Origin: a virus
Length of the DNA: 64,000 nucleotides
Virus record (IMG/VR): IMGVR_UViG_3300032163_000002
Location: 64,001-128,000 of that record
Reading direction: 5' to 3' (one strand)
The notes beneath the pieces were generated by a model. It ran no database searches. It saw only the letters and a program-made list of their open reading frames with translations, and was not told the origin of the DNA. A program made the translations under genes and the position numbers. Positions 5,346 to 48,950 of the stretch are shown here, one piece after another. Position 1 is the first letter of the stretch. Each line of letters opens with the position of its first letter.

Positions 5346-5941
5346 GGAGTCTCCTCCGCATTTTCATGAGCAAAAGTAAGTGCTACCCGATTAAGAAAAG
5401 CTACTGCGAATACTTCAAGTTTCGCAATTCGATACATTCCTACGCGAAGACATAAACATTTTACGTCCCCAAAAGCATCAGTGCTGTTCCAAAGTATAAG
5501 CGGCTCTCGATAATTTTTCATAAGCACCACAACCGGGAGAAGAAGCTTTGGCGCAGTCTTTCTGTCTTGCTCCCCACGCAATTTTTCAGTAGCTTCCTTA
5601 AGCCATTCAAACCCGACCCACTTCATTTCGAGTTCAAGCAGATTATCAAATGTCCATATTTCCCGGTTTTTGACTTCTATGTAAACCGGAAAACGGGCGC
5701 GTACTTCATCAGACATGCGCAAATCAGACCGTTCAATAAAAGCACCAGAATTCGGAGTTCGACACAAAGCCTTGTATTCAACTCCGAGAATTTTCCCAAG
5801 TATCTTGGCAATTTTCAGTTCACCTGATTTCCCCTTCGTCCGAGCCCTACGGCCATGTCCTGCCTTCGTCCGAACCATGACTTTCCCGAAACCTTCACAT
5901 TTAGGACAGGTCTTTTCGGTAAAACTTTCAGCTTCGCTCAT
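5342..5941 (-). CDS. Holliday junction resolvase-like PD-(D/E)xK nuclease
   Basis: KGKSGE...SD(L)...IEVK motifs; N-terminal CxxC. Confidence 0.7.
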   Translation of the reverse strand: MSEAESFTEKTCPKCEGFGKVMVRTKAGHGRRARTKGKSGELKIAKILGKILGVEYKALCRTPNSGAFIERSDLRMSDEVRARFPVYIEVKNREIWTFDNLLELEMKWVGFEWLKEATEKLRGEQDRKTAPKLLLPVVVLMKNYREPLILWNSTDAFGDVKCLCLRVGMYRIAKLEVFAVAFLNRVALTFAHENAEETP

Positions 5942-23908: not shown

Positions 23909-24556
23909 TTATTGAAGGTAATCGGCTAAGACGGCAGACATTGCCGGATCACTGCTAAGCGTCGGGGCTAACTGCCTGAACTCCGGAAGAGACCAGACAT
24001 AGTCACGAGGAAGAAGCCTGACTAAGAACGGATCTAAAAGAACATCCGATATCGTCTTCATATCTACACGCGATACCATGATGTTTTTGAGCGTAGCCTC
24101 ACCAGATTTCAAAATATTCTCCGGACACCGCGCGCCCTGAGACATTTGCACCCGACGGAGCCACGCTTTATACCGAGATACGCACCCAGCGTTGACACCT
24201 AAATACCGCCACGTCGGATAAGTCGTGGCGTAAGGTGTTGGCTTAACCCACTCGACAAATTGTGCTTGTAGAAAATGAAAAACGCTAATGTGCTTTTCCC
24301 CGCAGAACCGAAGAATAGCACAAATCGGTTTCCAAAGCTTTAGATTTTCAGCATGAATTCCATTACGCAACACACCCCGGTAATAAGTCGTAACAGAATG
24401 TTGTTGCACAAGTTTTTCATAAAATTGAAGGGCTTGAATAACCTGCATCCGGTTGAGACCTTCCGGATTTCGTAAATGAACCGAGGTCTCATACGCTAGT
24501 TTTCTCCGCTTTATTGTTGGGCCAGAGGAATTCTTGGTCTTCCCCGTCGTCATCAT
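23909..24556 (-). CDS. hypothetical protein
   Basis: ORF in the replication operon; start reassigned to an ATG with GGAG RBS. Confidence 0.65.
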   Translation of the reverse strand: MMTTGKTKNSSGPTIKRRKLAYETSVHLRNPEGLNRMQVIQALQFYEKLVQQHSVTTYYRGVLRNGIHAENLKLWKPICAILRFCGEKHISVFHFLQAQFVEWVKPTPYATTYPTWRYLGVNAGCVSRYKAWLRRVQMSQGARCPENILKSGEATLKNIMVSRVDMKTISDVLLDPFLVRLLPRDYVWSLPEFRQLAPTLSSDPAMSAVLADYLQ

Positions 24557-26093
24557 CGTATTGCTCCAACGATGCCGTAACAGGTTGCTGCTGTGCGACA
24601 CCGCTCTCGTACACGGAAATGGTTGAGAAAATCTTCTCGTCTTCGTAAACCTTCAATCGCGCCTTGAAATGTTTGAGCAAATAAGGATTCGTCAAATCAA
24701 GAAAATCTATGACCTCAAGCGAATGCCCTCCTTCCTTGATACGAAGTCCGCGCCCGATCCGCTGCATCACCCGCACAAAGCTTTTTGTTGGAGCCGCAAG
24801 AATGACCACATCAAGATCAGGAACATCGGTGCCTTCATCAAAAATAACCGTGGAGACAAGAATTGAAAGCGCCCCGCTTCGAAGATCAGCTACGGCCTTG
24901 TTGACAATACTCCGGTAAGACACGGAAGCCATATCTTTTCGTGCAATGAAAATGGCAGGGGGGAGAGTCGGATCACCTTTTTTCAAAGCTACATATTCAG
25001 CTTCAAGATTCCGAACCAATTTAACGCTAAAGCCCCCGACGACCAGAACCCGCTTTCCAGTCTTCGCCCGCTCCACAGCAAGCTCCATGATCCTTCGGGA
25101 CCGGCCTTCATTGCCAATGATCAGGTAGTTCAGGGCCTCCCGCCAGTTGTAATGACTGCACCCTGCGGGCTCTGAGACCTCGTAGACGATCAACCCAGCC
25201 TGTGCCAGCTTACCTTGCCTCTGAAGCCGTTCAGGCGGAACATCGACCAACAGGGGGCCTGTGCAGCCCATCAGGACCAGATCCGTCTCCTCATCCTTCG
25301 TGAAGGGGGTGCCGGACATGCCGACTCTAACCTGAGCCGGACAAGCGTCGAGAATCGCCCTGAAGGTGCGATCACCCTTTCCAACCCGATGGGCTTCGTC
25401 AGCTATCACAACGCGACTCTCCCGTAGAAGAGACAAAACGTAGGGGTCTCTAACGTAGAGCCGGGAAGCCAGCGTGTCAATGCTCCCGATGAGAAACTTC
25501 CCCGGTTTGTTGGTCTCGGCCATGATGATGCCAACACGCTCAGATCCGAGAAACTCGCAGAATCGTTCGTAGGTTTGGTCCACAAGCTGTTGTCCATGAA
25601 CGAGTACAAGGGTCGGGACATCGAAAGCATGAGCTATCATCGCTCCCACAAGGGTCTTACCGCCCCCGGTCGCAATCCGAAGAACGCCACGCTGATCACC
25701 GGGGTAGTTGGCCCGGAGAACCCTCTTGACAGCGTCTACCTGATAGTCCCACGGAGTCAGTGACCCGAACGGCCCGGTAATGGGGTTGACGACGGGTAAG
25801 AACTCAAAACCTTCCGGCATGAAAAGTTCGACCGGAAATCCTGCTTTCGTGAGAGCTTCCGTAACTAAAGACAAAACACCTGAAGGAAATGCCCCTCCTG
25901 TACTTAACAGATGAAGCTTTCCATCCCAACGTTTCTGCTTATAAGCTGTTGTCCAGAAATAACCTTTCTTGTAGCAGGAGGTTACTTCGTCAACAATATT
26001 ACGGGGATATCGGCTTAGAAACCTCGCGCGCTGCGCCCCAACCAGAATGTTCATTTTTGTTCCAAGCGGAAGAGGAAGCTGCACAGCAGGCAT
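24489..26093 (-). CDS. superfamily 2 DNA helicase (UvsW/XPB-like)
   Basis: YQ, ATGGGKT, DEAH, SGTP, EGTDVP, QRIGRGLR. Confidence 0.92.
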   Translation of the reverse strand: MPAVQLPLPLGTKMNILVGAQRARFLSRYPRNIVDEVTSCYKKGYFWTTAYKQKRWDGKLHLLSTGGAFPSGVLSLVTEALTKAGFPVELFMPEGFEFLPVVNPITGPFGSLTPWDYQVDAVKRVLRANYPGDQRGVLRIATGGGKTLVGAMIAHAFDVPTLVLVHGQQLVDQTYERFCEFLGSERVGIIMAETNKPGKFLIGSIDTLASRLYVRDPYVLSLLRESRVVIADEAHRVGKGDRTFRAILDACPAQVRVGMSGTPFTKDEETDLVLMGCTGPLLVDVPPERLQRQGKLAQAGLIVYEVSEPAGCSHYNWREALNYLIIGNEGRSRRIMELAVERAKTGKRVLVVGGFSVKLVRNLEAEYVALKKGDPTLPPAIFIARKDMASVSYRSIVNKAVADLRSGALSILVSTVIFDEGTDVPDLDVVILAAPTKSFVRVMQRIGRGLRIKEGGHSLEVIDFLDLTNPYLLKHFKARLKVYEDEKIFSTISVYESGVAQQQPVTASLEQYDDDDGEDQEFLWPNNKAEKTSV

Positions 26094-26099
26094 GGTTAA

Positions 26100-26128
26100 A
26101 ACTTACACCCGTAAGAGAAAAAAGTCAA
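26100..26128 (-). promoter_or_regulatory. promoter TTGACT-N17-TAAGTT with CTTAC-N4-GTAAG; leaderless start at 26093
   Basis: aacttacacccgtaagagaaaaaagtcaa. Confidence 0.85.
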
Positions 26129-26137
26129 GAGATACCC

Positions 26138-26166
26138 TTGACAGTCAAACGTATTGAACCTAAGTT
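26138..26166 (+). promoter_or_regulatory. divergent promoter TTGACA-N17-TAAGTT without palindrome
   Basis: ttgaca gtcaaacgtattgaacc taagtt. Confidence 0.75.
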
Positions 26167-26172
26167 ACAGGC

Positions 26173-26245
26173 TGCTGCTGTGCTCGCTGGGCCGAACACC
26201 CTGCGCGTACGTTTCGCCCCCGGTGTCCACCGGGGGCGTTCTTTT
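26173..26245 (+). ncRNA. candidate ~75-nt two-hairpin small RNA
   Basis: bounded by a consensus promoter and a GC-rich terminator; internal hairpin with CCGAACA loop; no credible ORF. Confidence 0.6.
26215..26245 (+). terminator. intrinsic terminator
   Basis: CGCCCCCGGTG-TC-CACCGGGGGCG followed by TTCTTTT on the plus strand only. Confidence 0.8.
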
Positions 26246-26249
26246 CTCC

Positions 26250-26810
26250 TCATGCCGTCTCCGACGACGAAACCACAGCTTCATCCAGAATCACTTCAAT
26301 TCCATAAACCTTACGAAAAAATTTCTCTATGTAAATCGAGTAAGGTAATCCAGATTCAAGAACGGCTCCAGCAGCATCCTGTGTCAGTAAAAGCTTTCCA
26401 TCATCACGCTGAAGAAGCTCGAAAAGGTTCAAGTCTTCGATATAAACAAGAAAGCTGGGGTGCTTTCCCTGTGTATGGACGATCCCTTCATTCATTTCCT
26501 TTGCAGCTTCTACCCGTTCCTCCACTGTTTTCATTTTTCGAATCTCAGCTAATGCTTTGTCATGTTCAGCATAACCGTCAGCATATACGGAATGCATTTC
26601 CCGACTAAGGACATTCGTTGCGTAAAGTGCTCCGAACATGCCTTCACTTCGATGCGACAGAACTTTTACGAGTCCAAGCACTTTTTCCATCTGCTCTACA
26701 ATGAGTTTCTGGTTAGCCTCAACTCTGGCAAGCCGTTTTTCAAATTCCTCTTTACGCTTTTCAGATTCCTCTTTTTCATCAGTAATAAGTTCGCGCTTAC
26801 GAATCGGCAC
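26250..26810 (-). CDS. hypothetical protein
   Basis: 186-aa ORF; GTG overlaps the upstream TAG. Confidence 0.7.
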   Translation of the reverse strand: MPIRKRELITDEKEESEKRKEEFEKRLARVEANQKLIVEQMEKVLGLVKVLSHRSEGMFGALYATNVLSREMHSVYADGYAEHDKALAEIRKMKTVEERVEAAKEMNEGIVHTQGKHPSFLVYIEDLNLFELLQRDDGKLLLTQDAAGAVLESGLPYSIYIEKFFRKVYGIEVILDEAVVSSSETA

Positions 26811-48632: not shown

Positions 48633-48950
48633 TTAAACATTTCCAATTTCATCAAAAAGTAGTTGTTTCAGTTCTCGGTAAGCACTTAATTTTCCCTCAA
48701 AATAAAGATCCATGTACGAAGAGCTACCTTCGTGAAGTTTAACGTGTTCTTTGATGATTTCTTCTACAATGCTTTTGAAAAGAATAAGACCTTCGCGGCG
48801 GCTATCCATTGTAAGAATTTCAACTATACGAATTAGTTTTTCACGTTCTGGAAACCGATCAAGTTCATATTGCATCAACTGACGGACACGGTCCCGAACT
48901 TGTCGGGCCGTATCCGCCAAAGGACGCTGCTGCGTCGCTACGACACTCAT
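48633..48950 (-). CDS. hypothetical protein
   Basis: TAATG-coupled to the tail fibre gene. Confidence 0.65.
   Translation of the reverse strand: MSVVATQQRPLADTARQVRDRVRQLMQYELDRFPEREKLIRIVEILTMDSRREGLILFKSIVEEIIKEHVKLHEGSSSYMDLYFEGKLSAYRELKQLLFDEIGNV

What the first reader, a model, noticed from the sequence alone, without database searches (positions are those of the whole stretch)
26138..26245. Self-contained ~75-nt small RNA gene on the opposite strand of a 35-kb minus-strand block
Seen: a consensus promoter TTGACA-N17-TAAGTT sits back-to-back with the helicase promoter. It is followed by hairpin 1 (GUGC-U-CGC-U-GGG / CCGAACA / CCC-U-GCG-C-GUAC) and an 11-bp GC inverted repeat with a U-tract only on the plus strand. 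Its 5' end contains CUGCUGUGC, which also occurs at the 5' end of the divergent helicase mRNA. It is not tRNA-like. Inference: an undescribed phage sRNA (regulator, decoy or anti-defence RNA).
Basis: partly seen in the sequence, partly recalled or inferred. Interest (0 to 1): 0.7.

Follow-up and report, generated by a model that had tools for sequence, protein, structure and literature searches.

The report
Phage small RNA targeting its helicase operon
A 141-kb uncultured phage carries a self-contained gene for a ~75-nt RNA next to its replication genes, and the RNA's conserved 5' end matches a site in the helicase message just upstream of the next gene, so it is probably a new but conventional base-pairing regulator.

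Summary
At 26138-26248 (+) there is a TTGACA-N17-TAAGTT promoter, a ~75-nt transcribed stretch, and one of the three strongest intrinsic terminators in the 141-kb genome, with its T-tract on the + strand only. No Rfam family, tRNA or phage-database match was found.

The unit is conserved in the only close relatives found. L009/L010 (helicase 70% identical) have it in the same layout. L011 (59% by global alignment) has it flipped onto the helicase strand, so it behaves as an autonomous module, not an obligate cis-antisense RNA.

Synonymous sites in the helicase gene are saturated (36-40% identity). The RNA's first 20 nt are 75-85% identical.

That 5' end is complementary to a site at homologous codons (..QQQ..) near the helicase 3' end, about 30 nt upstream of a conserved GGAG-ATG start of the next gene. 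The match is 11 nt here (18 bp extended), 15 bp in L009 and 13 of 14 in L011, with two compensatory changes.

Best reading: a trans-acting, 5'-seed small RNA controlling the helicase/gene-2 junction of the phage replication operon. Transcription and the regulatory outcome are untested. It is a new member of a known kind.

Other first-stage readers had flagged this same stretch; one note supplied the target lead.

The parts
26138..26143 (+). -35 hexamer TTGACA of the small-RNA promoter
   Evidence: Identical hexamer in L009 and L011.
26161..26166 (+). -10 hexamer TAAGTT, 17-nt spacer. It lacks the CTTAC-N4-GTAAG palindrome carried by the 11 minus-strand promoters.
26170..26246 (+). Predicted small RNA of about 75 nt. 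The start is inferred from -10 spacing, the end from the terminator U-tract.
   Evidence: Single copy in the genome by nhmmer.
26170..26188 (+). 5' seed GGCUGCUGCUGUGCUCGCU; core nt 4-14 at 26173-26183
   Evidence: Region beginning at CTGCTG (26172-26191) is 75-85% identical among three phages, against 36-40% at synonymous sites. Complementary to 24605-24583.
26180..26210 (+). Hairpin 1 (GUGC-U-CGC-U-GGG / CCGAACA / CCC-U-GCG-C-GUAC)
   Evidence: A hairpin on the same conserved 5' arm CGCYGG is predicted in L011 and L009. Not significant alone.
26215..26248 (+). Intrinsic terminator: 10-bp GC stem, 4-nt loop, TTCTTTTCTC tail; + strand only
   Evidence: In L009 the stem lost one base on each arm and stays fully paired.
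26100..26128 (-). Divergent helicase promoter TTGACT-N17-TAAGTT with the CTTAC-N4-GTAAG palindrome. The ATG lies 7 nt after the -10, so the mRNA is leaderless.
24489..26093 (-). SF2 (ResIII/DEAD) helicase gene, first gene of the replication operon
24583..24605 (-). Predicted target site inside the helicase 3' coding region. Core GCACAGCAGCA at 24596-24586; flanks AGCGG and CC extend the pairing.
   Evidence: At homologous codons in L009 (5477-5491) and L011 (5473-5488).
23909..24556 (-). Gene 2 (215 aa, all-alpha, function unknown), with a revised start at ATG 24556 and GGAG at 24567-24564. It overlaps the helicase 3' end in the +1 frame.
   Evidence: The conserved LRNPxGxxRM lies upstream of the ATG at 24448, the start of the 179-aa gene called downstream of the helicase on another contig of this phage. 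No Pfam family above threshold and no significant fold match.
26250..26810 (-). Upstream 186-aa gene of unknown function. Its stop codon abuts the small-RNA terminator.

Best explanation
This is a gene for a ~75-nt non-coding RNA. It is transcribed from a host-type sigma-70-like promoter and ended by a strong intrinsic terminator.

Its 5' end (GGCUGCUGCUGUGCUCGCU) pairs in trans with the phage replication-operon mRNA about 1.6 kb away. The paired site lies inside the 3' end of the helicase coding region, 27-49 nt upstream of the start codon of the next gene (gene 2).

The most likely outcome is post-transcriptional down-tuning of gene 2 and/or of the helicase message. This could work by hindering 30S access just upstream of the Shine-Dalgarno sequence, or by making a duplex that an RNase cuts.

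The RNA's promoter lacks the palindrome that overlaps the -10 of the early promoters, so it may be regulated differently from the operon it targets.

Shown: the sequence signals, their conservation, and the complementarity with covariation.
Inferred: transcription, pairing in vivo, the direction of regulation, and any timing role.
For: - Promoter and terminator.
- Same unit in L009/L010, confirmed by the scan tool.
- L011 unit found by a model built only from own + L009. It was the only hit in 154 kb, E = 0.0096, and it lies on the helicase strand. The module therefore works regardless of its orientation to its neighbours.
- Helicase 4-fold synonymous sites are 36-40% identical, while the RNA's first 20 nt are 75-85% identical.
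- Seed/target complementarity at homologous helicase codons in all three phages: 11 nt perfect (18 bp extended) in own, 15 bp in L009 (best trans hit in that locus by 4.8 kcal/mol), and 13 of 14 in L011.
- Shuffled-seed tests: 2, 5 and 35 of 2000 shuffles reach the observed energy.
- Compensatory changes: seed nt 13 G->A with target C->U in L009; seed nt 14 C->G with target G->C in L011. There is also one C->U change giving a G-U wobble.
- A conserved GGAG-N7-10-ATG lies 30 nt downstream of the site, and gene-2 residues upstream of the previously called ATG are conserved.
- L012, L014 and L016 lack both the RNA and the CAGCAG site.
- A more distant clade (L013-15, L020) has a different small unit at the same place. 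Its loop is complementary to the 5' end of the leaderless helicase mRNA, and that is the top trans hit in those loci.
Against: - There are no transcript data.
- Only three distinct family members exist, so covariation rests on two or three events, and the three lineages are not independent.
- The core of the target is CAGCAG (Gln codons), a simple repeat kept by protein constraint.
- The cross-pairing matrix is not cleanly diagonal: the own seed pairs as well with the L009 target.
- By duplex energy the site ranks 3rd among trans sites on the own minus strand and 2nd in L011.
- The site ends 16 nt upstream of the SD, at the edge of the usual window for translational repression.
- No conserved mRNA structure links the site to the RBS.
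- L011 has two possible pairing registers.
- Hairpin 1 is not supported by statistics or covariation.
Confidence: 0.55

Rival explanations
1. A cis-acting antisense unit of the lambda OOP or P22 sar type. The RNA, or convergent transcription from its promoter, acts on minus-strand read-through RNA that crosses the junction between the 186-aa gene and the helicase gene. This would trigger RNase III cleavage or transcriptional interference and insulate the helicase promoter from upstream transcription.
For: The RNA is perfectly complementary to any read-through transcript. The minus strand has no proper terminator after the 186-aa gene, because the hairpin has no U-tract on that strand. In L009 the RNA overlaps about 30 nt of the upstream gene's 3' end, as OOP overlaps cII. 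Size and layout resemble OOP (PMC12197685).
Against: In L011 the homologous unit lies on the same strand as its neighbours, so it is antisense to nothing. In the window the RNA stops before the upstream stop codon. This model does not explain the strong conservation of the 5' 20 nt or the distant complementary site.
Confidence: 0.15
2. A DNA-level element rather than an RNA gene: a replication-origin or priming signal (CTG repeats plus hairpins beside the helicase/primase genes), or a regulator-binding region of the divergent promoters.
For: It sits at the head of the replication module. CTGCTGCTG contains the trinucleotide that E. coli DnaG recognises (my own knowledge, not tested here). Inverted copies of CTGCTGTGC flank the promoter pair in the window.
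Against: A strand-specific T-tract and a full promoter are conserved in three phages. The inverted 9-mer is absent from L009 and L011. There are no iterons or AT-rich unwinding features. The spacing between the divergent promoters is not conserved: about 9 bp here, with 19 more bases in L009.
Confidence: 0.08
3. A transcribed but functionless by-product, such as a spurious divergent promoter capped by a protective terminator. In this case the complementarity to the helicase site would be a coincidence of CTG/CAG repeats.
For: The target core is low-complexity. Several other sites in the genome pair about as well by energy. The family is tiny.
Against: The 5' end is conserved far above the neutral level. 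The positional coincidence holds in three phages, with compensatory flanking changes.
Confidence: 0.12

Closest known systems
Trans-acting 5'-seed small RNAs with a Rho-independent terminator (enterobacterial RybB/OmrA type; phage examples lambda PreS/LPR1 and VP882 VpdS)
   Same: It has its own promoter, a conserved mostly unpaired 5' end used for pairing, an internal hairpin, a terminator hairpin with a U-tail, and a short imperfect duplex with a distant mRNA. Phage-encoded examples are known (bioRxiv 10.1101/2024.10.31.621285; PMC12197685).
   Different: There is no sequence or Rfam relationship. The predicted target is the phage's own replication operon, at an internal cistron junction inside a coding region, not a host mRNA 5' UTR. 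Chaperone dependence is unknown and the host is unknown.
Lambda OOP RNA and P22 sar RNA (cis-antisense phage RNAs)
   Same: These are also ~70-nt self-contained units, transcribed against an early operon next to replication or regulatory genes and ending at an intrinsic terminator (PMC12197685).
   Different: OOP and sar act on the gene they overlap. Here the overlap is absent (window), partial (L009) or impossible (L011, same strand), and the conserved complementarity is to a site 1.6 kb away.
Spot 42-galK and RyhB-iscRSUA (discoordinate operon control; from my own knowledge)
   Same: A small RNA pairs at an internal cistron boundary of a polycistronic mRNA, so genes of one operon can be expressed unequally.
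   Different: Those are host RNAs that pair over the internal RBS. Here the duplex ends 16 nt upstream of the SD, and the outcome is untested.

Membership tests
Any Rfam 15 family | Covariance-model score at or above the family's gathering threshold | tested here: not met
   Best overlapping hit is anti-hemB at 15.1 bits against a threshold of 49.5. L009 hits ncS54 at 28.3 bits against 43. Both look like generic GC-hairpin/U-tail similarity.
tRNA / tmRNA | Cloverleaf or tmRNA detected by ARAGORN | tested here: not met
   No genes found in the whole window.
Trans-acting base-pairing small RNA (kind) | Independent promoter and Rho-independent terminator delimiting a 50-300-nt non-coding transcript | tested here: met
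   There is no self-contained ORF on the + strand. These are sequence signals only.
Trans-acting base-pairing small RNA (kind) | Conserved seed with a conserved complementary target and compensatory changes | tested here: met
   Only three lineages and two double changes, so support is moderate.
Trans-acting base-pairing small RNA (kind) | Detected transcript, and regulation abolished then restored by compensatory mutations | not testable with these tools
   Uncultured phage; no expression data available.
Cis-antisense RNA of the OOP/sar type | Transcribed opposite to, and overlapping, the gene it controls in all members | tested here: not met
   No coding-region overlap in the window. About 30 nt of overlap in L009. 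Same strand as its neighbours in L011.
RNA anti-CRISPR (repeat mimic) | Similarity to the host's CRISPR repeat | not testable with these tools
   The host and its repeats are unknown. There is no repeat-spacer structure near the unit.

The most novel reading that the evidence does not exclude
A three-way RNA switch. In this phage the 5' end of the leaderless helicase mRNA (nt 5-13, CUGCUGUGC) is identical to the small RNA's seed. The helicase message could therefore pair with its own 3' site upstream of gene 2. The small RNA, acting as a mimic of that 5' end, would compete for the site and so set the helicase to gene-2 ratio. More distant relatives have a different small RNA at the same place aimed at the helicase 5' end. 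Small RNAs would then be an evolving control layer of this phage group's replication operon.
Probability: 0.1. Interest if true: 0.75.

Novelty: new member of a known kind. Interest (0 to 1): 0.55.

Why it matters
Few small RNAs of large lytic-type phages have a known target, and almost none have been found from sequence alone in uncultured phages. Here comparative genomics gives both an RNA gene and a specific, testable target inside the phage's own replication module. A second, unrelated small RNA in a sister clade appears aimed at the same operon. If confirmed, this would show RNA-level control of phage replication-gene dosage, and it would show that such regulators can be predicted from metagenomic contigs.

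Tried and rejected
- Rfam at permissive E-values gave nothing credible.
- blastn against 50,697 phage records gave no match.
- IMG/VR and metagenome scans with protein patterns and three DNA patterns found no further homologues. The 2 IMG/VR and 84 metagenome pattern hits lack the body or terminator of this RNA.
- Pairing of the RNA with the helicase 5' end: only 5-6 bp in the window by hand inspection, so rejected for this clade.
- Exact-complement search in L009 at first missed the G-U-containing site. A search that allows wobble pairs found it.
- The 42-aa minus-strand ORF 26125-26253 (ATGA overlap with the upstream stop) is open in L009 too, but the conserved DNA blocks fall in different frames. 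It is probably not coding.
- A + strand peptide: there is no start/stop-delimited ORF.
- A conserved mRNA structure linking the target and the gene-2 RBS: none found.
- Gene-2 function: no Pfam family above its threshold. The AlphaFold model has pLDDT 74 and gave no significant fold match. A 'helicase loader' appears only at E around 0.7.

Full report
**Context**

The window is bases 64001-128000 of a 141,027-bp virus record with direct terminal repeats. Around the finding lies a minus-strand replication module:
- an SF2 helicase (24489-26093);
- a 215-aa protein of unknown function (gene 2);
- a YAcAr/SLOG protein;
- a DnaB-like helicase and further ORFs;
- a CobT/vWA protein, and a UDG-PolA fusion.

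The finding sits in the 156-bp gap between the helicase start and the stop of a 186-aa gene of unknown function (26250-26810).

**Observation**

Promoter. It is TTGACA (26138-26143), 17 nt, TAAGTT (26161-26166). TTGAC-N18-TAAGTT turns out to be the phage's own repeated promoter type. There are 11 minus-strand copies with a conserved spacer (CTTACRGRTG), several of which start leaderless mRNAs, including the helicase mRNA. The + strand copy shares both hexamers and the spacing but not the spacer palindrome. A chance match at this spacing is expected about 0.07 times per genome (my estimate).

Terminator. The stem is 26215-26238, followed by TTCTTTTCTC. At -21.6 kcal/mol it is among the three strongest of 54 hairpin+T-tract sites in the genome. 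On the minus strand the hairpin is followed by AAACG, so it is built to stop + strand transcription, and the only + strand promoter nearby is 50 nt upstream.

Other checks:
- Hairpin 1 folds as described but is not better than shuffles.
- No Rfam family reaches threshold.
- No tRNA was found.
- There is no match among deposited phages.

**Relatives**

A helicase search of 5.8 billion proteins found only a handful of relatives. Their contigs were fetched.

L009/L010 (helicase 70% identical; neighbouring 185-aa gene 44% identical) has the same arrangement on the strand opposite the helicase:
- TTGACA-N17-TATATT;
- the same spacing to CTGCTG;
- a ~80-nt body;
- the terminator CGCCCCGG-TCT-CCGGGGCG followed by TTCTTTATTT.
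The stem has lost one base on each arm and is still fully paired. In L009 the stem lies inside the upstream gene's coding region, so it is not being kept there as non-coding spacer.

L011 (helicase 60% by BLAST, 59% by global alignment) has a homologous unit just upstream of its helicase operon but on the same strand as the operon. It reads TTGACA-N17-TATTTT, then GGCTGCTGCTGTGGGCGCTGG..., a hairpin, and a terminator. A profile built from own + L009 alone finds it as the only hit in 154 kb (E = 0.0096).

Helicase 4-fold synonymous sites are 36-40% identical among the three phages, which is saturation. The first 20 nt of the RNA are 75-85% identical. The unit is therefore under selection. Because its orientation relative to its neighbours is not fixed, it behaves as an autonomous gene.

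No further members were found in IMG/VR or in the metagenome collection.

**Target**

An earlier first-stage note on this same stretch said the RNA is complementary to the start of the operon's second gene. I tested this.

Own genome. Seed nt 4-14 (UGCUGCUGUGC) are perfectly complementary to GCACAGCAGCA at 24596-24586 on the minus strand. Flanking pairs extend the duplex to 24605-24583, giving 18 bp with one mismatch and a 4-nt bulge. An 11-mer alone is not rare in a genome this size.

Relatives. The relatives show the same pairing at the same place:
- L009: seed nt 3-17 pair over 15 bp (one G-U) with CGGGTACAGCAGCAG at 5477-5491. This is the best trans site in that locus by 4.8 kcal/mol.
- L011: seed nt 1-14 pair 13 of 14 with CCACGCCAGCAGCC at 5473-5488.

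All three sites fall on homologous helicase codons (..V-A-Q-Q-Q.. and equivalents), 60-107 nt before the helicase stop.

Covariation. The flanks of the site covary with the seed:
- seed nt 13 G->A is matched by target C->U in L009;
- seed nt 14 C->G is matched by target G->C in L011;
- a C->U seed change in L009 leaves a G-U pair.

Statistics. Shuffled seeds reach the observed energy in 2, 5 and 35 of 2000 trials.

Absence in other relatives. L012, L014 and L016 lack the RNA and also lack CAGCAG at that position.

**What lies at the site**

Thirty nucleotides downstream, inside the helicase codons L-E-x-Y-D, all three phages (and L012) have GGAG, 7-10 nt, then ATG in the +1 frame. Gene callers used this ATG for gene 2 in L011 and L012.

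Residues encoded between it and the ATG at 24448 (the start of the 179-aa gene called downstream of the helicase on another contig of this phage), LRNPxGxxRM, are conserved with synonymous variation. Gene 2 therefore most likely starts at 24556 and overlaps the helicase 3' end. The RNA would bind at -49 to -27 relative to that start.

Gene 2 is an all-alpha protein with no Pfam family above threshold and no significant fold match.

**Mechanism**

Shown:
- a conserved promoter-RNA-terminator module;
- a conserved 5' end;
- conserved, covarying complementarity to the helicase/gene-2 junction.

Inferred:
- The RNA is made and pairs in trans.
- The duplex either hinders 30S access at the upstream edge of the ribosome footprint or creates an RNase substrate. 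Either would lower gene-2 and/or helicase expression, giving discoordinate control within the operon.
- Because its promoter lacks the palindrome over the -10 of the early promoters, the RNA may escape whatever regulator acts there.

I found no conserved mRNA structure that would suggest activation by unmasking the RBS.

**Rivals**

- A pure cis-antisense (OOP/sar-like) role fits the window and L009. It fails for L011, and it does not explain the conserved seed or the distant site.
- A DNA-level origin or operator role does not explain the strand-specific terminator.
- Coincidence of CTG/CAG repeats remains possible, given only three lineages.

**Wider pattern**

A more distant clade (L013-15 and L020; helicase about 50% identical) has an unrelated ~100-nt promoter-terminator unit at the same position and orientation. 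The large loop of its terminator hairpin contains GUCGCCGCCA, complementary to nt 2-11 of that clade's leaderless helicase mRNA. This is the top trans hit in both loci. It is independent, if weaker, support that small RNAs at this locus act on the helicase operon.

**Verdict**

It is very probably a small-RNA gene (about 0.8). The specific base-pairing model has about 0.55 confidence. It is a new family of a familiar kind of regulator, of moderate interest, and made directly testable by the predicted seed/target pair.

Noticed in passing
window 563, 21163, 26128, 32654, 34918, 35863 (minus strand) and five more outside the window: Eleven near-identical promoters of the form cTTGAC(T/A)-N8-CTTACRGRTG-TAAGTT. 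The CTTAC-N4-GTAAG palindrome overlaps the -10. Several have the start codon 6-8 nt after the -10, which implies leaderless mRNAs, including the helicase mRNA.
   Followed up: partly
L014 about 3300-3205 (minus strand); L020 about 690-585 (minus strand); identical in L013 and L015: Distant relatives have a different ~100-nt promoter-terminator unit at the same place. Its terminator loop (GUCGCCGCCA) is complementary to the 5' end of the leaderless helicase mRNA (AUGGCGGCGAC), and this is the top trans hit in both loci.
   Followed up: partly
L014 3330-4000; L020 700-1380; L016 3020-4000: A conserved 650-1000-nt stretch with no called gene lies upstream of the helicase in the ~50%-identity relatives. 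It looks GC-rich and structured and has no Rfam hit at E <= 0.1. In L016 an open frame with Cys- and His-rich motifs runs on the opposite strand; its identity was not checked. It could be a large non-coding RNA or an intron-like element.
   Followed up: no
window 23909-24601 (minus strand): The start of gene 2 is probably ATG 24556, with GGAG at 24567-24564. This overlaps the helicase 3' end by 68 nt in the +1 frame. Neither ATG 24448 nor GTG 24601 fits the conservation as well.
   Followed up: yes
window 48951-48920 (minus strand): The start region of ORF 48633-48950 (its ATG overlaps the stop of the 1641-aa ORF) pairs with the small-RNA seed at -29 kcal/mol, including wobbles. This is a possible second target. 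Conservation was not examined.
   Followed up: no
window 26081-26089 and 26175-26183: The 9-mer CTGCTGTGC occurs in inverted copies flanking the divergent promoters. The helicase mRNA 5' end therefore shares the RNA's seed and is itself complementary to the 24596-24588 site. This is not conserved in L009 or L011.
   Followed up: partly
L059, L063, L066, L071, L086 (metagenome contigs): The pattern scan found, by chance, an unrelated conserved unit: TTGACA-N17-TAAYTT, then CTGCTGTTGT..., then the terminator AAGCCCGCAYCTTGCGGGTTTTGTTT. It looks like another small-RNA family.
   Followed up: no
window 26125-26253 (minus strand): A 42-codon arginine-rich ORF starts with an ATGA overlap on the upstream gene's stop and covers the small-RNA region on the other strand. 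The conserved DNA blocks fall in different frames in L009, so it is probably not coding.
   Followed up: partly
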